DNA of 63,719 nucleotides, the filler included, from Collodictyon triciliatum (Eukaryota): assembly GCA_043381765.1 (NCBI GenBank). It is 34 parts of 34 records of this genome, joined end to end, with 100 filler letters (N's around TTAATTAATTAA, not from the genome) between each part and the next. Parts side by side here need not be neighbours in the genome. Positions count along the whole stretch, not along the records: positions 22,838 to 24,637 come from JBHJMP010010186.1; 33 more parts are not named here. One strand, given 5' to 3'. The notes under the pieces were generated by a model. The model was given only the letters and a program-made list of their open reading frames with translations. It had not been told where the DNA came from and searched no databases. The position numbers and the translations under genes were made by a program. Shown in pieces: positions 2,097-30,452 of this stretch. The stretch's first letter is position 1; each line of letters begins with the position of its first letter.

Positions 2097-3499
2097 ATGT
2101 CCAAGTGTAAGAGATCAACCGATGGCGTTGTTAAAGTGGAAGATATGGCCATTCAGCAGGTTTTTTTTTAGCCCTTTTTCTCTTTGTTCTTATATTTTTG
2201 TTTGCAGTTTGAATTTGTAAGTGTCTGGAATCTGGTTAACGATAAATCATGTGTTTTTAATCATAATATATTCATTTCATTTTATATCTCTATAAGATTG
2301 TGATGTTTTGAAAACCCACCTAAATATTATAAAAAAATTGGACGTCGTTGAACTTCTAGGAGAGCGGATGTCGTCTTTACCAATTGAAGATGTTTTCTTC
2401 TTTTGAAAATTCCTGCAATGTTGCATTGCAAATCAACAAGATATCCATCCAAAATAAAGCAAGGCTAGAGAGCAAATCTGATGGTGGTGCAAACACGTTG
2501 GCACTACGAGTCTTTACTGTCTCCAAAACCCTTCAAGAATTTGCTGTGCAAACTATTCCGTCCATTCGTAAGGTTCGTACTCGGTTTCCGAAGGACTTTT
2601 CTTTTACTTTTCTTGAGTCGCAAACAACACCCGTTTTTATCCCGATGGTTTATTTTGGGTTTAGAATGATCACCAGGAACGCCCTTGATTTGAAAGTAAT
2701 TCGTAAAACAGTTGGGAAAAGTGGGTCGGGTGAGGCAGAGTTCAACACTTCGTACGGCATCACAACTCATCCAGAAACAGGAAATGTATATGTGGCCGAC
2801 TTTTGCAATCACCGTATTCAAGTTTTTGATCGAGAGATGAACTTCCTATTTCAATTCGGCTCTCGAGGAAAGGATGCCCAAGATTATGAATATCCATCTG
2901 GTCTAGCCTTCATGAGCAATGGTGAAACACTTGTCATAGTGGATAATGATAACCGTCGCATCAAGTTTACAAATCCTGAAGGCAAGGTCCTGAAAATCAT
3001 TGATGGGAGTTCTCCGGGCACACATAATTTCGATGAACCATATTTTGTAGCCTTAGATGCAGATGACAATATATATGTTTCAGACAGAGATAACTATCGA
3101 ATTCAGAAGTATGATAAAGAAGGCAATTTCGTTATGTTTATCGGAGAGCGCGAAAGTTCTGAGCCTGTGGGTCGTGTATGCGCCATTTTGGTGACAGATA
3201 ACAATGAGGTAATTGGGCTCGAAGAGGGAGGAAATACATTAAAGATATACACCACGCAAGGAACATTTACAAAGTCTGTTACCATTCCCCAGACTCAATC
3301 TCGAAAGAACTTCCTTGCCCGTGCCTCTCACGGCGGATATATGCTTTCCGACCGAGGCAATAACTGTATTTTATTCTTTGACTCGAATCACAGCTTTTAC
3401 CACCGAATCGATATCAACACTCCTATAGGTGTTGCGTTTGGCGACAACGATACCCTTTACGTTGTTGGTTGTGATAGTTCAATCGTATCGCTTTACTGA
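2097..3499 (+). CDS. NHL-repeat (beta-propeller) protein
   Basis: Exons 2097-2159, 2208-2216 and 2360-3499 join in phase 0. NHL motifs VYVADFCNHRIQVF, IVDNDNRRIKF and IYVSDRDNYRIQKY. Ends at TGA; the 5' end may extend upstream. Confidence 0.88.
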
Positions 3500-4256
3500 G
3501 CCTTCCCATAAGCAATAACGCTACTCCGCTTTGGATTGAATTCGGCTTTTCGCCACAACATAAAAAAAAAAGGCTTTGGGTGCCCTGAGATAAAAAAAAA
3601 TGTTACATAAGGGGGCTTTCTTTTCTTTTTCTTTTTCTTTTTCTTTTTCTTTTTCTTTTTCTTTTTCTTTTTCTTTTTCTTTTTCTTTTTCTTTTTCTTT
3701 TTCTTTTTCTTTTTNNNNNNNNNNNNNNNNNNNNNNNNNNNNNNNNNNNNNNNNNNNNTTAATTAATTAANNNNNNNNNNNNNNNNNNNNNNNNNNNNNN
3801 NNNNNNNNNNNNNNGCCCAAATATCCTCTCGTATCTCGAGCGACATTCGTCCCTTGGCTGATTCAAACACAAACCAGCCACAAAATTTCGTCCAGAATAA
3901 AAAAGAGGCTTTTGTTGTGGTGGAACATTCTATTGTGCTTAGGGATGATATAAAACCGCCGTTGTCGAGACAGGTGCAACTTTGATTTGGATGTGATAAG
4001 CCGTCCACAGACATTTTGTGACATGTAGCTCCAGCATCACGCAATGATTTGAATCCACCGTGAAATCAATAACCCATCGAAGTGCCAGCCTCAACGGAAT
4101 GGAACATTCGATTGTCCAGGATAATAACAATGATAATAATCGTGGGAATATCCTTTGACACAGGGGTTTCCATCGGGTGATGTCACATGAAAAGAATTTA
4201 TTGATTGAAGCAATTTCTTTACTCAATTTAACTATAACCTATATAGACCAAGAAAC

Positions 4257-9527: not shown

Positions 9528-9870
9528 GTAGTGGAGATAGATACGGAGACAAAGACGGACGCAGAGGAAGACTTAAGAAGCCAAGATGTTCAAGAGAACG
9601 CACACGTAGTGGAGATAGATACGGAGACAAAGACGGACGCAGAGGAAGACTTAAGAAGCCAAGATGTTCAAGAGAACGCACGCGTAGTGGAGATAGATAC
9701 GGAGACAAAGACGGACGCAGAGGAAGACTTAAGAAGCCAAGATGTTCAAGAGAACGCACACGTAGTGGAGATAGATACGGAGACAAAGATGGACGCAGAG
9801 GAAGACTCAACAAGTCAAGATGTTCAAGAGAACGCACGCGTAGTGGAGATAGATACGGAGACAAAGACGG
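9528..9870 (+). repeat. 78-bp coding tandem repeat (26 aa VVEIDTETKTDAEEDLRSQDVQENAH), more than 4 copies
   Basis: Units start at 9528, 9606, 9684, 9762 and 9840; the array continues into the gap. Confidence 0.95.
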
Positions 9871-11077
9871 AAACCGAGGGAGGCACGAGAAGCCAGGAGA
9901 CTCATGAGGGTATCAAGGCGGAGGAGACAGATACGGAGACAAAGGACGGGACAAGGAGCGAGGAGAAGCCAGAGGAGGCGCATGTGGTCTCTGCGCGCTT
10001 CCGCCCTGTGGACGGAGAAGCAAGCGCGGCGATGAGCAGGCTGCTGTCTGCAGGGCTGCTCGGGCGTGCGTGGCGGTGGGTGCGGATGGGGAGCGGGATT
10101 CTCGTGGGCGGGGCGGCCATGCTGTGTCTGCTGCTGCTGTCGCCCCTGCGTCTGCTGCACCCGCTGCTGAAGCTGCTCCGCGTGCCGCGCAGGTATCTCC
10201 CGCTCGACGTGCTGCAGCGCGTGTGGGCCCGCCTCATGCTGCTGCTCTTTGGTGTCCGCGTGCGCGTGCACGGGGCCGAGCTCGTCCCGCAGGACCGGCC
10301 GGTCATTGTGATGTTCAGCCACTCGTGTGAGTGCTCTCGTCCTCACCATCTGTCTAATATGTCCTCATATCCATCGCTCGTCTAATCTGCCCTCATCCTC
10401 GCCATCCATCTAATCCGCTCTCATCTTCGCCATCCATCTACTCTTCTCTCATCTTTTCCATCCATCTAATCCGCTCTCATCTTCACCATCCATCTACTCT
10501 TCTCTCATCTTCACCATCCATCTAATCCGCTCTCATCTTCGCCATCCATCTACTCTTCTCTCATCTTCACCATCCATCTAATCCGCTCTCATCTTCGCCA
10601 TCCATCTACTCTTCTCTAATCCTCACCACCACCCATCTAATCTTCTCTCATCTTCGCCACCCACTTAATCCGCTCTCATCTTCGCCATCCATCTACTCTT
10701 CTCTCATCTTCTCCACCCACCTAATCCGCCCTCATCTTCGCCATCCAATCAGCTCTCTCCTCTATCTGCTGAGATCAAGTTATACACACGTAGCCGGGCT
10801 GGACCCGTTTGTCATCGTGGGCCACTATCCAGGGTCCGTGCGCCTGGTGGCGAAGCGGTCTCTGCTGCTGGTGCCGCTCTTTGGACTCACCGGCTACCTC
10901 TACGGCCACATCTACATCAACCGCGGCGACCGGACCAGCGCCATCGGGTCCCTCAACCAGGCCGCCTCCGCCATCACACAGCGCAAGCAGAGCATCGCCA
11001 TCAGCCCGGAGGGCACCCGCTCCACCGACGGCCGCCTGCATCCCTTCAAAAAGGGCCCGTTCCATCTTGCCCGCCAG
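9528..11077 (+). CDS. 1-acyl-sn-glycerol-3-phosphate acyltransferase (PlsC/LPAAT) with N-terminal acidic repeats, partial
   Basis: Splicing 10326 to 10794 gives the HX4D motif HSSGLD. Also VAKRSL, INRG and SPEGTRS..FKKG. A hydrophobic anchor precedes the domain. Confidence 0.93.
10375..10750. repeat. Intronic 28-bp minisatellite with alternating variants
   Basis: Unit CATCCATCTA(ATCCG/CTCTT)CTCTCATCTTC(G/A)C at 10403, 10431, 10459, 10487 and onward. Confidence 0.9.
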
Positions 11078-11080
11078 GTT

Positions 11081-11330
11081 CGAACCAGAGACAATATCCC
11101 CACCATCTTGCACACAATTGAAAGGAATAATCATAGTCATAGTCATAATCTTAATAATAATAATCATAATAATAATAATCATAATAATAATAATCATAAT
11201 AATAATAATCATAATAATAATCATAATAATAATAATCATAATAATAATAATCATAATAATAATAATCATAATAATAATAATCATAATAATAATAATAATA
11301 ATAATAATCATAATAATAATCATAATAATA
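11081..11330 (+). mobile_element. 5'-truncated LINE 3' end (family A) with (AAT/AATCAT)n tail
   Basis: CGAACCAGAGACAATATCCCCACCATCTTGCACACAATTGAAAGGAATAA matches the terminus of the LINE at about 38596-38650. Confidence 0.8.
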
Positions 11331-22623: not shown

Positions 22624-22695
<72 letters not shown>

Positions 22696-22837
22696 GGTGG
22701 GGGTGTGTGTGTGTAATCCCGCGTCATATATATATATNNNNNNNNNNNNNNNNNNNNNNNNNNNNNNNNNNNNNNNNNNNNTTAATTAATTAANNNNNNN
22801 NNNNNNNNNNNNNNNNNNNNNNNNNNNNNNNNNNNNN

Positions 22838-22874
<37 letters not shown>

Positions 22875-23054
22875 AAGAATCATACACCTCTCTCTAAAAA
22901 ACAGGATTTTGTGTCTTTCCTGGCAGCCTTCACCACTACACGATCTTTTGTGAAAAAAGTGGTGAGACCTTGGATACTAACGCACCAGGTTTATCAATCG
23001 AAAGATTGGATACCCATCTAGTGGCATAAATCAATATAAGCCATCGACCTTGTC

Positions 23055-24507
23055 TCATTGCTTGGTATACTCCGAATATTTCGGTTCTTGCTCGTTCATG
23101 TGCTGGACATTTTCCAACATTTTCTTTGCCCAGATTAAGTGCTCCACGATTAATGTATCTGTTTCTGTTTTCAAAACCTTTTTTTCACAAGAATCGAATC
23201 GGTTGTTAGCATGTTAAAATGGTATGAAAGCCTTTTGAAAAAAAAAAACTAAGTAGTAATAGGAAAAATTATGGACACCTGCAAAGGAAAAGCAATAAGT
23301 TCCAAAAAGAGAGTAAGAACAAAAACAAGGACAGAAAAAAAACAAGTTAAAGTAAAACAAAGCTTTCATACCTCATCGACAACCTCTAAAAGTTGTATAT
23401 TTTTGGAGTTCCCGATGGCCACCGCCACATTTCTGAGCAACCTCGACCTCTTTATTCTCAGGATTGGAGATCCCTCGAATCTGGTGTAAAAGTTGTCAAC
23501 CGTAGTAGATAATTATAAAAGTCGCAACTAAAGCATGGACATATTTCTCTATCAGGATGCGACGGCTGATGTTATTTGAAGAAATTGAGAAACAACCTTC
23601 TTCGAAATCCTTCTTCATCAAGTCGAATCAGCTCTGCAAGCTTTGGAGCAGTTACAGCGTCATCAGGAGAACCCCAAAGCGGGGAAGGATCCTGGAAGAT
23701 TCTGTTGAACGGACAGACTTGTTGGCACACATCGCATCCATATATCTAGCGATTTCGAAAAAGGGTTATAGTTGTTACAATTATTACAGATATTATTTGG
23801 ATTGGACATGGAATTGGAATTGGGTATTTCTAATTGCCCGAAATACGACTGGATGGCTGAACTATATGTCCAAACCAACATCAAATCAGAAACAAAAACG
23901 TATTCATAAATATGTGTCACCAACCTCCTTCTCTCCGACATATTATCACACAAACCGAGGACTCCGAAAGAAATAAAGGGGTAAAATCACAAAAATCAGT
24001 TGAAACATTACCTTGTTCTGCATAAGTGGTCGCAATTCCTCTGGGATTGATGTCTTGAGCTCAATAGTGAGGTAGGAGATACACCTGACATGTATTATTG
24101 CGTTCAACATTCGATATGGGAATGAAAAGAGTCGAGCAGAAATCAAAAAGCATGCACCTGCGAGCATCCAACACTTTGGGCCCCACAAATGCCTGTGTTG
24201 GACAAGCGCTCATGCATCGTGTGCATGAACCACAGGAAGGCAGTTTTTTGGTTGGCTTTGTCTCTGGTTCAAGTTTAGGAGAGCTATCCGGCTCAAAGGG
24301 GACAACAGACAAGATTTCTCCTAGAAAGAAGCCACTGCCATACTTTGGATGGATCAGAAGCGAATGTTTGCCGATGAAACCAAGGCCAGCTCGCACGGCC
24401 CACTGCCTTTCCATAATCGCCCCAGTGTCCACATACCATTTTGTTGGTGTCTGCGTGCGCTCTTCAATCAATTTGCAAATATCCTGTAACCGAAATGAAT
24501 TCATTAC
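23055..24507 (-). CDS. queG: Epoxyqueuosine reductase QueG, 3' part, intron-containing
   Basis: Exons (24507 or 24483)-24158, 24084-24012, 23745-23597, 23480-23372 and 23177-23055 splice in frame. Motifs YVDTGAIMERQWAVRAGLGFIGKHSLLIHPKYGS.FFLGEI, CGSCTRCMSACP, LDARRCISYLTIE, IYGCDVCQQVCPFN, FEGSPILRI..LLRNVAVAIGN, VEHLIWA. Confidence 0.95.
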
Positions 24508-24539
24508 CTCGTCGTTAATCAAATCAAATCAAATCAAAT

Positions 24540-24637
24540 CAATTCAATTCAATTCAATTCAATTCAATTCAATTCAATTCAATTCAATTCAATTCAATTC
24601 AATTCAATTCAATTCAATTCAATTCAATTCAATTCAA
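24540..24637. repeat. (AATTC)n microsatellite inside a queG intron
   Basis: Perfect pentanucleotide run up to the linker. Confidence 0.95.
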
Positions 24638-24759
24638 NNNNNNNNNNNNNNNNNNNNNNNNNNNNNNNNNNNNNNNNNNNNTTAATTAATTAANNNNNNN
24701 NNNNNNNNNNNNNNNNNNNNNNNNNNNNNNNNNNNNNGCATAATGTGTTCATTATTGTC

Positions 24760-25850
24760 TATATGGCATTTAGTATAAACCTGTTGAGAATCTCCACGTT
24801 TCCGTCGAAATCTGCGAACCGTCTGCCAAGCTCTTCTCCAGCCATCCAGAAGTTATGTAAATGGAAGTGCCATTTGCTATGCACGCATGGCCCATTCTAT
24901 TTGATGGAACGGAACTGCTCGGCCCAGAGATAGAAATCCGAGTCCATATACTGAATAATGAATTTTTGTTATAAAAAAGAAGTAAAACTCTCAATCGTGC
25001 ATCTTGCACATATTGGCTAACCTCGAACCAAGATGGAGGATGTATGTAAAAAGGTCGCCGTTGTCATTCTTATTGAATCCTCCGTAAAGATATATCCTTT
25101 AATCAACAATTTTGTATGAGTACTTCCCAACTGAAACATTCTAATGCGCCAGTATATGTATCGAATTCATTCATACCGATGTTTATTCTTTCATTTCAAT
25201 ATCATTATTGGCTCTGTGTAAGTAATTGTAGTTATTTAATTGTATACAAACTTGTTGTTAGTGAGGACTGCACAGGCTCCGTATCTTTTTGAAGGAATGT
25301 CTCCAGATGCTCGAATCAACTCCCAACCGAATGTGGCTTTTATTTTCGAGTAATTTTTTTTTAAAAAAAGTAGAAAACTGAGTGATTATTTTTTATATTT
25401 GAGAGAAAATTTTTGGATGAATAAAGCGATGGGTCTCCTTTTTTTTTCCTTTGATTCTTGAAGGTGAGTAACCTGCATTAGTATCTCTCAAAAGATAAAT
25501 AAGGTCCATGTCTGTGAATTCTGCACTAGAAGATGAGAGCTTTGCATTGTTACGGTATCCACCCAACAAGTAAACGTGTGTTGAGTTGGATGCAACAGAG
25601 CCATGGATGATTGCAGGGGGCTGCGAATCTGCTTGAATCCAGTCCAAGCTCACAGCGTCTTTGAGTATGCAATTATTATTGAATCATTGGTTTGGTCGTT
25701 CACAATAGTGGATGGTCATGCTCATGTATGAAGGATGGAGATTAAAACAAATAAATCTGAAACATAAATGTTGACCTAGAGAGGAGGAGATCAACAGGAA
25801 GCATGTCCAAATGGTGAATGGTGACAGAGCAAACATGGTGGGCCAACTCA
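24760..25850 (-). CDS. Secreted/membrane kelch-repeat protein, 5' part
   Basis: Signal-like first exon (MSWPTMFALSPFTIWTCFLLISSSL); kelch motifs HVYLLGGY, GDIPSKRYGACAV and YLYGG. Confidence 0.75.
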
Positions 25851-26432
25851 TCGCAGCACTTTTCTTTACGATTTACCTTTGATTCCCTTTGATTGTCGTT
25901 TTTCTGTGATTTCTTTTCGAAGGGATATTCTCTGTGCTGGACTAGGCTTTCTGGGAAAATCGTGGAAAGAGTCAGTCATGGATAATCTTTGAAAGCGTGC
26001 CAGGTAGCTTCATGATAAGCTTTCCGTGGGTCACTTGCCCAAACCGCCGAGCAGTTCTCTGTCGCATCACTCCTCAATAATATATTGTTCTTCTATAGGC
26101 GAGCCAGATGTATTTGGTTGTGATTTTGACGAGCTCCAGATTCCCAAGCCCGCTCGAGGCAAAGCAACAGCAACATCAAGTAGGTGGGTTATTGCTTTGC
26201 TTCGACCGTTCCCTTTACTCCAGAAAGAGGTTGATATCTGAATGGGAAGAATCCATCAAAGCTGGAAAATATTGATTTGAATATAAATATTGGGATAATC
26301 GGGCACTTATGAGTGTTTTGTTCCTAAATTTCGTGCTATAATACGAATCATATCATACCGACAGATGTCCAATGAACGCCACACGAGAAGATTGAAAACT
26401 ACGGTTGTATCTCAATTTTACCCCAGTTTAAA

Positions 26433-30075: not shown

Positions 30076-30452
30076 CAAGAAAGAAGCAACAAATGGCGGT
30101 TAGATTTTGGAAGTTTTTTTTCCCCCACAGAATATTGACATTAATGACCAAATGAAAAAAATAAGACATGATGTGCTATGGAGATTAATTTTAAATTCAT
30201 ACATACATACATACATACATACATACATACATACATACATACATACATACATACATACATACATACATACATACATACATACATACATACATACATACAT
30301 ACATACATACATACATACATACATACATACATACATANNNNNNNNNNNNNNNNNNNNNNNNNNNNNNNNNNNNNNNNNNNNTTAATTAATTAANNNNNNN
30401 NNNNNNNNNNNNNNNNNNNNNNNNNNNNNNNNNNNNNGGCTCGTGTTTTCCA

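What the first reader, a model, noticed from the sequence alone, without database searches (positions are those of the whole stretch)
23055..24507. Intron-containing queG: a bacterial cobalamin-dependent queuosine enzyme in a eukaryotic genome
Seen: five exons joined by GT-AG introns rebuild an uninterrupted QueG C-terminal portion. It keeps all eight Fe-S cysteines (CGSCTRCMSACP, RRCISY, GCDVCQQVCP), the VDTG..ER segment, RNVAVAIGN and the terminal EHxxWA helix. The upstream intron holds a host-type (AATTC)n microsatellite. Established: QueG performs the last step of bacterial queuosine synthesis on tRNA (epoxyqueuosine to queuosine) using cobalamin and two 4Fe-4S clusters, while eukaryotes are generally described as salvaging queuine through QTRT1/QTRT2. 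Inference: an old, domesticated horizontal transfer. It would imply either a more complete queuosine pathway in this lineage or a way to use epoxyqueuosine from ingested bacteria, and it adds a cobalamin-dependent reaction beyond the usual eukaryotic ones.
Basis: partly seen in the sequence, partly recalled or inferred. Interest (0 to 1): 0.9.

Follow-up and report, generated by a model that had tools for sequence, protein, structure and literature searches.

The report
Intron-bearing queG fragment in a protist
A 1.8-kb contig from a freshwater protist assembly (probably Collodictyon) carries the last two-thirds of a bacterial-type, vitamin-B12-dependent tRNA-queuosine enzyme gene split by four spliceosomal introns, which adds a new lineage to a kind of eukaryotic gene first reported in algae in 2025.

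Summary
On the minus strand, five exons (24483-23055) separated by four GT..AG introns give an open 259-codon frame. It is 58-60% identical to bacterial QueG and collinear with TIGR00276 positions 112-313. All eight Fe-S cysteines and the catalytic Asp/Arg are present.

The window is 34 unlinked ~1.8-kb contigs glued with 100-nt spacers. The queG piece is one contig (22838-24637), so it has no real neighbours. The N-terminal third (most of the cobalamin-binding domain, the DYH histidine, any targeting peptide) lies beyond the contig end.

Another contig encodes an ARPC3 exon 98% identical to that of Collodictyon triciliatum. Unitigs from four freshwater or subsurface metagenome studies match the locus at 99-100%, introns included.

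In trees it sits in a fully supported clade with Myxococcota-type QueGs and a eukaryote-like subclade. Its place inside that clade is unresolved.

Nuclear, mitochondrion-targeted QueG with bacterial-like TGT and QueA is already published for Chloropicon and red algae (PMC12301720). This is therefore a new member of a known kind. Expression, completeness and host assignment remain untested.

The parts
22838..24637 (.). The single 1800-nt contig that holds the finding. It is bounded by artificial 100-nt spacers at 22738-22837 and 24638-24737.
   Evidence: 33 spacers, pieces sorted by falling length; piece 13 of 34, GC 0.387, trinucleotide distance rank 8 of 34.
24484..24637 (-). 3' part of the upstream intron, with acceptor ...TTACAG at 24484. 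It contains the (AATTC)n / (TCAAT)n microsatellite at 24519-24637, which runs to the contig end. The 5' exons are off the contig.
   Evidence: Homology to QueG starts at the first codon after the AG. The upstream in-frame stretch is closed by a stop and does not align.
24158..24483 (-). Exon A (326 nt, ends in codon phase 2). It encodes the end of the cobalamin-binding domain with the catalytic Asp of VDTG and the following Arg, a 10-residue lineage-specific insert, the first CxxCxxCxxxC, and the start of RRC.
   Evidence: TIGR00276 112-205, E 2e-29. PDB 5d08/5d6s QueG, E 5e-17 / 4e-16. Fer4_16.
24085..24157 (-). Intron 1, 73 nt, GTGCAT...TGTCAG.
   Evidence: Covered end to end, together with exon B, by a 151-nt metagenome unitig (X4 record 11).
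24012..24084 (-). Exon B (73 nt): CISYLTIELK...LMQNK, with the fifth cluster cysteine.
   Evidence: TIGR00276 207-230, E 3.6e-7.
23746..24011 (-). Intron 2, 266 nt, GTAATG...CGCTAG.
   Evidence: X1 record 2 covers 23838-23988 with 2 differences.
23597..23745 (-). Exon C (149 nt, ends in phase 2): IYGCDVCQQVCP (last three cluster cysteines) and the start of the HEAT-like RNA-binding domain.
   Evidence: TIGR00276 231-278, E 3e-11. X1 record 1 spans the exon C / intron 3 border with 0 differences.
23481..23596 (-). Intron 3, 116 nt, GTTGTT...CACCAG.
   Evidence: X3 record 8.
23372..23480 (-). Exon D (109 nt): ...RIKRSRLLRNVAVAIGNS..., a helix of the HEAT-like domain.
   Evidence: TIGR00276 281-313, E 1e-4. 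Covered with both flanking intron borders by X3 records 7 and 8.
23178..23371 (-). Intron 4, 194 nt, GTATGA...AAAAAG, GC 0.29.
23055..23177 (-). Exon E (123 nt including stop TGA at 23057-23055): the EHLIWA helix and a non-conserved tail.
   Evidence: No family hit of its own. Pairwise alignments to homologues continue to residue 240-246 of 259. A 1-residue indel lies at the D/E junction.
22838..23054 (-). 3' flank. It holds a short dispersed repeat at about 22950-23010 and an A35 run at the contig end (22838-22872).
   Evidence: unitigs at 90-95% identity with differing loose ends..

Best explanation
What it is. The contig holds the 3' two-thirds of a real nuclear gene of a microbial eukaryote, most likely the Collodictyon-like organism that the assembly represents. 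The gene encodes a bacterial-type epoxyqueuosine reductase (QueG, EC 1.17.99.6) and has acquired at least five spliceosomal introns: four complete, and one cut by the contig end.

Inferred mechanism, from the family. The protein binds cobalamin and two [4Fe-4S] clusters. Electrons pass through the clusters to the cobalamin, which attacks the epoxide of epoxyqueuosine at position 34 of tRNA-Asp, -Asn, -His and -Tyr. The VDTG aspartate donates the proton, giving queuosine.

Inferred cellular role. Because QueG only works on oQ already in tRNA, it should act downstream of a bacterial-like TGT and QueA. The most likely place is the mitochondrion, acting on organelle-encoded GUN tRNAs with salvaged preQ1, as proposed for Chloropicon.

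Shown: gene structure, family, conserved catalytic and cluster residues, and occurrence of the intron-bearing DNA in nature.
Inferred: completeness of the gene, expression, activity, localisation, partners, and assignment to Collodictyon.
For: Family and collinearity.

Residues. Exon A residues D19 and R26 align with chain residues 162 and 169 of 5d08_A. These are Asp134 and Arg141 of B. subtilis QueG by my offset of 28. Asp134 is the proposed catalytic acid, and its Ala variant loses most Q (PMC5175355, passages). All 8 cluster cysteines are present.

Eukaryotic nature. 4 of 4 introns are GT..AG, frame-breaking and AT-richer than the exons. A plausible acceptor precedes exon A.

Not an assembly artefact. 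Eight 151-nt unitigs from 4 runs of 4 studies match at 0-2 differences and cross exon/intron borders.

Selection. The frames are intact at about 60% identity to the nearest homologues, and conservation is concentrated in the motifs.

Organism. The ARPC3 exon on piece 30 is 98% identical to Collodictyon triciliatum ARPC3. Other pieces carry eukaryote-typical domains: P21-Arc, HMG box, Peptidase_C78, Pkinase, NHL. The queG piece is compositionally typical, rank 8 of 34. Like 8 of 34 pieces (the ARPC3 piece among them), it has microsatellites at both ends.

Organellar pathway precedent. PMC12301720. Three of the 9 rows of the eukaryote-like sister group carry basic N-terminal extensions of 103-147 residues. 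The sister genus Diphylleia encodes 27 mitochondrial tRNAs, enough for all amino acids (PMC4779616, passage).
Against: Missing N-terminus. The N-terminal ~125 residues are not in the window: most of the cobalamin-binding domain, the DYH histidine (His106 in B. subtilis) and any presequence. tblastn with 120 homologues found nothing credible elsewhere. The best non-queG hit is E 0.004 and contains stops. The 9 upstream ORFs tested gave no QueG hit, and they belong to an unlinked contig anyway.

Possible truncated product. An in-frame ATG at 24504 could start a truncated, probably inactive protein.

No close relatives or companions. No transcript or protein of near identity exists in the protein collection. 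Companion genes could not be searched because no genome is held.

Host assignment is indirect. The marker is on another contig. GC3 of queG (0.48) differs from the ARPC3 exon (0.71), and the ARPC3 contig is GC-richer along most of its length. Such protists are grown on, or caught with, eukaryotic prey (PMC3351787).

Nearest relative. P0016 has no N-terminal extension and may be bacterial.
Confidence: 0.6

Rival explanations
1. The gene is real and eukaryotic, but the contig comes from another eukaryote in the sample (ingested or co-cultured alga such as a cryptomonad or green alga, or another protist) and not from the Collodictyon-like main organism.
For: Collodictyon cultures are fed Plagioselmis or Chlorella, and prey sequences had to be filtered out (PMC3351787, passages). 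Published eukaryotic QueGs are algal (PMC12301720). queG GC3 is 0.48, against 0.71-0.85 for the ARPC3, kinase and acyltransferase pieces, and the ARPC3 contig is GC-richer throughout. No sequence other than poly-A links the queG contig to any other piece.
Against: The piece is not a compositional outlier (rank 8 of 34). It shares the microsatellite-terminated style of 23 of 34 pieces. Several other pieces with eukaryote-typical genes have similarly low GC3 (0.38-0.54). The protein does not fall inside the MMETSP / long-extension subclade, which is 100/99 without it.
Confidence: 0.2
2. It is a decaying or truncated relic: the 5' part is lost or the gene is silent, and the protein no longer reduces epoxyqueuosine.
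For: Only profile positions 112-313 are seen. No close protein or transcript exists in the collections. The last exon is poorly conserved: 7-8 identities in 39 residues.
Against: Five exons stay open, with all eight cluster cysteines, the catalytic Asp and Arg, and the RNVAVAIGN helix conserved at about 60% identity to distant homologues. The break coincides with a contig end inside a microsatellite, as at most pieces. That is the expected artefact of a short-read assembly, not evidence of loss. No differences were seen in the 450 exon-A bases covered by three metagenome unitigs, and both listed variants lie in introns. These numbers are very small.
Confidence: 0.13
3. One reading: the enzyme lets a bacterivore use epoxyqueuosine (free base or nucleoside) from ingested bacteria, acting in the cytosol on salvaged material.
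For: The organism is a phagotroph (PMC3351787). Localisation is unknown because the N-terminus is missing.
Against: QueG converts oQ to Q in situ on tRNA and recognises the anticodon stem-loop through its HEAT-like domain (PMC5175355, abstract and passages). That domain is retained here. No route is known, to my recollection, that inserts an oQ base into eukaryotic tRNA. The only published eukaryotic model places QueG in mitochondria after BL-TGT and QueA (PMC12301720).
Confidence: 0.05
4. Bacterial contamination or an assembly chimera that only mimics introns.
For: The closest homologues are bacterial: Myxococcota-named proteins at 57-58% identity to exon A and Chloroflexota loci at 51-59%.
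Against: Four frame-breaking, AT-rich GT..AG interruptions lie exactly at homology breaks. The same interrupted sequence occurs in unitigs of four independent studies. No bacterial homologue exceeds 61% identity to exon A.
Confidence: 0.02

Closest known systems
Nuclear-encoded, mitochondrion-targeted QueG of Chloropicon primus / C. roscoffensis and red algae such as Galdieria sulphuraria (PMC12301720, 2025)
   Same: A bacterial-type QueG encoded in a eukaryotic nuclear genome. In that model it acts with bacterial-like TGT and QueA in an organellar preQ1-salvage route.
   Different: Here the host is, by a marker on another contig, a heterotrophic CRuMs flagellate and not an alga. Only the C-terminal 259 residues are available, so targeting is unknown. 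Companion genes were not searchable. I could not place the algal sequences in my trees: none was identifiable in the search output, and Fig. S5 of that paper is a supplement I could not see.
Bacterial QueG (TIGR00276; structures 5D08 of Bacillus subtilis and 5D6S of Streptococcus thermophilus)
   Same: Collinear match to profile positions 112-313. The catalytic Asp, the Arg, eight cluster cysteines and the HEAT-like C-terminal helices are present. Identity to the nearest Myxococcota-type proteins is 58-60%.
   Different: It is interrupted by spliceosomal introns. It has a 10-residue insert before the first cluster motif (relative to P0002, P0006 and P0007; about 11 residues relative to 5d08). 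It has VCPF where the 23-row alignment has a nearly invariant W. The N-terminal domain is unseen.
Environmental and MMETSP 'eukaryote-like' QueGs (P0082, P0009, P0015, P0018 and relatives)
   Same: They fall in the same fully supported clade (100/100) as the window's protein. Monophyly with them is not rejected (p-AU 0.63).
   Different: The free trees put the window with P0016 among Myxococcota-type rows, with weak support (80/83 and 90/81). The 'eukaryote-like' label is my inference from an MMETSP source and from long basic N-terminal extensions in 3 of 9 rows. One cluster member is named in NCBI as a Promethearchaeia MAG protein.
Reductive dehalogenases (RdhA/PceA, e.g. PDB 8Q4H)
   Same: Related cobalamin plus two-[4Fe-4S] architecture. 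Weak hits: TIGR02486 E 0.0018; 8q4h E 1e-4.
   Different: More than 25 orders of magnitude weaker than QueG. They lack the HEAT-like tRNA-binding domain.

Membership tests
QueG (tRNA epoxyqueuosine(34) reductase, TIGR00276) | Whole-protein score at or above the curated cut-off (200 bits) | tested here: inconclusive
   Exons were scored singly: 102.5 + 29.5 + 42.9 + 21.2 = 196 bits, over 202 of 337 profile positions. The joined protein could not be sent to the tool, and the N-terminal third is missing.
QueG (tRNA epoxyqueuosine(34) reductase, TIGR00276) | Two [4Fe-4S] clusters bound by eight cysteines (CxxCxxCxxxC ... C ... CxxCxxxC) | tested here: met
   Cys at 84, 87, 90, 94, 110, 137, 140 and 144 of the spliced product. 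Fer4_16 hits on exons A and C.
QueG (tRNA epoxyqueuosine(34) reductase, TIGR00276) | Catalytic aspartate of the VDTG loop (Asp134 in B. subtilis) and the neighbouring Arg141 | tested here: met
   The alignment to 5d08_A puts exon A D19 and R26 on chain residues 162 and 169. Roles are from PMC5175355. Both columns are invariant or nearly invariant in the 23-row alignment.
QueG (tRNA epoxyqueuosine(34) reductase, TIGR00276) | N-terminal cobalamin-binding domain (PF08331/DUF1730) with the DYH histidine (His106) | not testable with these tools
   It lies upstream of the contig end. No hit in the rest of the window. No genome is held.
QueG (tRNA epoxyqueuosine(34) reductase, TIGR00276) | C-terminal HEAT-like tRNA-binding domain | tested here: met
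   TIGR00276 positions 231-313 are matched by exons C and D. Alignments to full-length homologues continue to within 2-9 residues of their C-termini. The fold was not predicted.
QueG (tRNA epoxyqueuosine(34) reductase, TIGR00276) | Enzymatic activity: oQ-tRNA to Q-tRNA, cobalamin-dependent | not testable with these tools
   Needs complementation or an assay.
Eukaryotic organellar bacterial-type Q pathway (BL-TGT + QueA + QueG, PMC12301720) | Nuclear gene with eukaryotic gene structure | tested here: met
   Four GT..AG introns. The intron-bearing DNA occurs in four metagenome studies.
Eukaryotic organellar bacterial-type Q pathway (BL-TGT + QueA + QueG, PMC12301720) | N-terminal mitochondrial targeting peptide | not testable with these tools
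   The N-terminus is off the contig.
Eukaryotic organellar bacterial-type Q pathway (BL-TGT + QueA + QueG, PMC12301720) | Co-occurrence with bacterial-like TGT and QueA in the same genome | not tested
   No whole genome is held. I did not scan the window's other 33 pieces with TGT or QueA profiles.

The most novel reading that the evidence does not exclude
A heterotrophic, deep-branching CRuMs flagellate keeps a working, cobalamin-dependent QueG as part of a complete bacterial-type TGT-QueA-QueG route in its gene-rich mitochondrion. With the algal cases, that would make the route an early, possibly pre-LECA, eukaryotic trait that was lost many times, not an algal oddity. It would also add a fourth B12-dependent enzyme family to eukaryotes, one that ties a predator's organellar translation to B12 and preQ1 obtained from prey.
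Probability: 0.15. Interest if true: 0.6.

Novelty: new member of a known kind. Interest (0 to 1): 0.35.

Why it matters
Textbook accounts say that eukaryotes only salvage queuine. They list just three B12-dependent eukaryotic enzymes; the table in PMC7435645 (seen) lists epoxyqueuosine reductase only for prokaryotes. A 2025 paper broke that picture for two algal groups.

If this gene belongs to Collodictyon and is complete, the bacterial-type route extends to a non-photosynthetic lineage near the base of Amorphea. That bears on whether the route is ancient or was transferred repeatedly. It would also predict a B12 and preQ1 requirement for organellar tRNA modification in a phagotroph.

As it stands, this is a partial gene on a 1.8-kb contig, without expression data. 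It is a useful lead, not a discovery.

Tried and rejected
Looking for the rest of the gene
- No whole genome is held for the window, so the 5' exons and queA, tgt, QTRT1/2 and QNG1 could not be sought.
- tblastn of 120 homologues against the whole window gave only chance-level hits outside the contig. The best is 53518-53682 (+), E 0.004, with two stops. A repeated 'AGLGFLGK' match at 25837-25959 (+) has E 1.7.
- Nine ORFs 'upstream' (24762-25392) gave no QueG hit. After these are known to be an unlinked contig anyway.

Related sequences elsewhere
- Metagenome-contig scan with exon A: 4 loci at 44-48% identity, no close relative. They also failed my ORF filter and were not used in the trees.
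- Short-protein search: 37 hits, best 52% identity over 90-92% of exon A (up to 60% over shorter stretches). No near-identical fragment spans a junction.

Sequencing runs
- No RNA holder listed, so splicing could not be tested. Laid DNA unitigs showed no joints, as expected for DNA.
- Parts of the stretch without cover are not evidence.

Host assignment and links between pieces
- The 22950-23010 repeat and the rest of the contig have no copy in other pieces except poly-A.
- GC3 and GC profiles were heterogeneous and did not settle the host.

Other
- Earlier-findings look-ups returned nothing relevant.
- Rfam found only one tRNA in the window.
- Structure prediction was not run. The joined protein may not be typed into the tool, and a single exon would say little.
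- The first AU-test runs did not finish or gave no answer. The test was completed.
Full report
1. WHAT THE WINDOW IS

The 63,719-base window is not a contiguous genome stretch. A scan for N runs found 33 identical 100-nt spacers (N44-TTAATTAATTAA-N44). They cut the window into 34 pieces of 1809 down to 1791 nt in strictly falling order; the last is cut at 1082 nt.

These are unlinked small contigs of a fragmented assembly. The finding lies wholly in piece 13 (22838-24637, 1800 nt). What looks like flanking genes (for example the kelch-like ORF at 25393-25683) belongs to other contigs and carries no contextual information.

No whole genome is held for this window.

2. THE OBSERVATION

Gene structure. 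On the minus strand five coding blocks are separated by four intervals that start GT and end AG. Joined by coordinates in a script:

| Feature | Coordinates | Length |
|---|---|---|
| Exon A | 24483-24158 | 326 nt |
| Intron 1 | 24157-24085 | 73 nt |
| Exon B | 24084-24012 | 73 nt |
| Intron 2 | 24011-23746 | 266 nt |
| Exon C | 23745-23597 | 149 nt |
| Intron 3 | 23596-23481 | 116 nt |
| Exon D | 23480-23372 | 109 nt |
| Intron 4 | 23371-23178 | 194 nt |
| Exon E (with TGA) | 23177-23055 | 123 nt |

- The joined exons give 780 nt: 259 codons plus TGA, with no internal stop.
- No intron length is a multiple of three. Intron GC is 0.29-0.38, against 0.38-0.50 for the exons.

Family. Scored singly against NCBIfam, exons A-D hit TIGR00276 (QueG) in order, at profile positions 112-205, 207-230, 231-278 and 281-313 of 337. 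The scores are 102.5, 29.5, 42.9 and 21.2 bits. The runner-up for exon A, reductive dehalogenase, has E 0.0018 against 2e-29.

Solved structures. Exon A matches the solved QueGs 5d08 (E 5e-17) and 5d6s (E 4e-16).

Spliced product. It aligns over 241-253 residues at 58-60% identity with P0006, P0002 and P0016. There are no gaps at three junctions and a one-residue indel beside the fourth.

Motifs.

Residues. By the 5d08 alignment, and with an offset of 28 between chain and native numbering (my own count), exon A residues D19 and R26 correspond to Asp134 and Arg141 of B. subtilis QueG.
- PMC5175355 (abstract and passages) describes Asp134 as the likely catalytic acid above the cobalamin. It also describes His106, which hydrogen-bonds to Asp134 and whose Ala variant likewise lowers Q, and a C-terminal HEAT-like domain that binds the anticodon stem-loop.
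- His106, which I take by recall to be the His of the DYH motif, would lie about ten residues upstream of where exon A begins (my count on P0002), so it is off the contig.

3. WHAT IS MISSING

Homology starts at the first codon after the acceptor TTACAG at 24484. The in-frame stretch upstream is closed by a stop and does not align.

The contig then runs into a (TCAAT)/(AATTC) array (24519-24637, 23.8 copies) and ends. So about 125 N-terminal residues are simply not assembled here. These include most of the cobalamin-binding domain and any targeting peptide.

tblastn of 120 homologues against the whole window found no credible N-terminal piece.

An in-frame ATG at 24504 could in principle start a truncated protein. 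I consider that unlikely, given the good acceptor and the conserved remainder.

4. IS IT REAL EUKARYOTIC DNA, AND WHOSE?

Evidence from metagenomes.
- Public-run search listed only small shares, in freshwater, lake and subsurface metagenomes.
- Laid on the stretch, runs X1-X4 (four studies) each gave 151-nt unitigs with 0-2 differences. Together they cover 23258-23532, 23555-23705, 23838-23988, 24007-24157 and 24122-24423.
- That is introns, exons and six exon/intron borders.
- The intron-bearing sequence therefore exists in nature, independent of this assembly.
- The two listed variants (23902, 24121) are intronic.

Identity of the assembly.
- An 84-residue ARPC3 exon on piece 30 is 98% identical to ARPC3 of Collodictyon triciliatum. 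The next hit is at 79%.
- Other pieces carry HMG box, Peptidase_C78, protein kinase, NHL and acyltransferase domains.

Does piece 13 belong to the same organism?
- For: piece 13 is compositionally ordinary (trinucleotide distance rank 8 of 34). Like 8 of 34 pieces, including the ARPC3 piece, it has microsatellites at both ends; 23 of 34 have one at one end or more.
- Against: GC3 is heterogeneous among coding pieces, 0.38-0.85, with queG at 0.48 and ARPC3 at 0.71. The ARPC3 contig is GC-richer throughout.
- Collodictyon is grown on cryptomonad or Chlorella prey (PMC3351787).
- I therefore put about 0.2 on the contig belonging to another eukaryote in the sample.

The microsatellite. The (AATTC)n array occurs nowhere else in the window, so 'host-type' is not shown.

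5. RELATIVES AND PHYLOGENY

Search results.
- Exon A found 2079 proteins at E <= 0.001 among 2125 candidates. The best 120 were listed, and none is above 61% identical.
- The named ones at the top are Myxococcales, Deltaproteobacteria and Myxococcota MAG QueGs.
These are mostly Chloroflexota and Verrucomicrobiota at 45-59%.

Quick tree: 85 rows, namely the window, 44 of the 120 listed proteins, and 40 of the 79 locus ORFs that passed my motif filter. Five of the 84 loci gave none, among them L001-L004. The window falls in a 24-row clade with 100% support, sister to Chloroflexota (98).

Careful tree: 32 rows, namely the 24-row clade plus 8 Chloroflexota.

| Grouping | Support (UFboot / SH-aLRT) |
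|---|---|
| 24-row clade | 100/100 |
| Nine-row subclade: MMETSP transcript P0082 and environmental proteins | 100/99 |
| 15-row remainder with the Myxococcota-named rows | 80/83 |
| Window + P0016 | 90/81 |

- In the nine-row subclade, three rows (P0009, P0015, P0018) have basic N-terminal extensions of 103-147 residues.
- P0016 shares an insert at the same place as the window's 10-residue insert, and also the VCPF motif. It has no N-terminal extension.

AU test. Holding the window together with the nine 'eukaryote-like' rows is not rejected. The constrained tree even scored 10.4 log-likelihood units better than the quick free tree (p-AU 0.63).

Conclusion on origin. Bacterial ancestry is clear. 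Donor, timing and the number of transfers into eukaryotes are not resolved. The 'eukaryote-like' label is my inference; one member of the P0009 cluster is named a Promethearchaeia MAG protein.

6. MECHANISM PROPOSED

Shown: a QueG-family reading frame with intact cluster ligands, catalytic Asp/Arg and tRNA-binding helices.

Inferred from the family (PMC5175355): cob(I)alamin, fed by two [4Fe-4S] clusters, opens the epoxide of oQ34 on tRNA-Asp/Asn/His/Tyr, with proton delivery by the VDTG aspartate.

Consequences of the tRNA-bound substrate.
- The enzyme is only useful after a TGT that accepts preQ1 and after QueA.
- The published eukaryotic model (PMC12301720, passages) places BL-TGT, QueA and QueG in mitochondria, fed by salvaged preQ1.
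- The sister genus Diphylleia has a gene-rich mitochondrial genome with 27 tRNA genes, enough for all amino acids (PMC4779616). Organelle-encoded GUN tRNAs are therefore plausible substrates.
- Localisation, partners and activity are all untested here.

7. NOVELTY

[quoted passage not shown] It also reports 'both bacterial and eukaryotic' homologues of QueG. Its Fig. S5 is a supplement I could not see and may already include other protists.
- A 2020 review table lists epoxyqueuosine reductase among prokaryotic cobalt enzymes only (PMC7435645).
- Searches for QueG or epoxyqueuosine with eukaryote, alga, protist or mitochondrion terms turned up no other eukaryotic report.
- No paper in the library holds both 'queuosine' and 'Collodictyon'. 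The ten listed of 88 papers show no queuosine term.
- The finding is therefore a new member of a known kind: the same sort of gene, probably in a new, non-photosynthetic supergroup.

8. VERDICT

The gene fragment is real and eukaryotic, and it looks selectively maintained. However, it is partial, unlinked, unassigned by direct evidence and without expression data, and its kind is already in print. Interest 0.35.

Noticed in passing
window 1-63719 (spacers at 1810-1909, 3715-3814, ... 62538-62637): The window is 34 unlinked contigs of about 1.8 kb, sorted by falling length and glued with N44-TTAATTAATTAA-N44 spacers. Any finding in this window that relies on gene neighbourhood across a spacer is void.
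   Followed up: yes
window 55260-55511 (+): An ARPC3 (P21-Arc) exon is 98% identical to Collodictyon triciliatum ARPC3, with the next hit at 79%. This is the only taxonomic anchor I obtained for the assembly.
   Followed up: partly
window 22950-23010: This short stretch downstream of the queG stop matches metagenome unitigs from three runs at 90-95% identity with differing flanks. It looks like a small dispersed repeat of the organism. No copy occurs in the other 33 pieces.
   Followed up: partly
coding pieces across the window (e.g. 10790-11089, 52539-53075, 55260-55511 versus 2699-3499, 25393-25683, 57343-58233): Third-position GC differs strongly between coding pieces: 0.71-0.85 against 0.38-0.54. 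The cause is either expression-linked codon bias or isochore-like heterogeneity, or more than one eukaryote in the assembly.
   Followed up: partly
23 of 34 pieces, at their ends (e.g. 22629-22714 (GT)43, 30198-30337 (CATA)35, 55071-55189 (ATAC)30): Most contigs begin or end in a perfect microsatellite of about 100 nt. This suggests a very microsatellite-rich genome whose short-read assembly breaks at these arrays.
   Followed up: partly
window 60748-60817 (+): Rfam tRNA hit (31.8 bits, model positions 8-63) at the very start of piece 33, apparently cut at its 5' end by the contig edge.
   Followed up: no
window 9528-9871 (+) and 10381-10747 (+): A 78-nt coding tandem repeat (4.4 copies, acidic VVEIDTETKTDAEEDLRSQDVQENA units) and a 28/84-nt repeat lie on the same contig as an acyltransferase (PlsC-like) domain.
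   Followed up: no
P0016 (protein) versus exon A residues 67-76: The nearest relative has a longer Arg/Pro-rich insert at the same position as the window's 10-residue insert before the first cluster motif. It also shares VCPF where other homologues have VCPW. Its origin (bacterial or eukaryotic) is unknown.
   Followed up: partly
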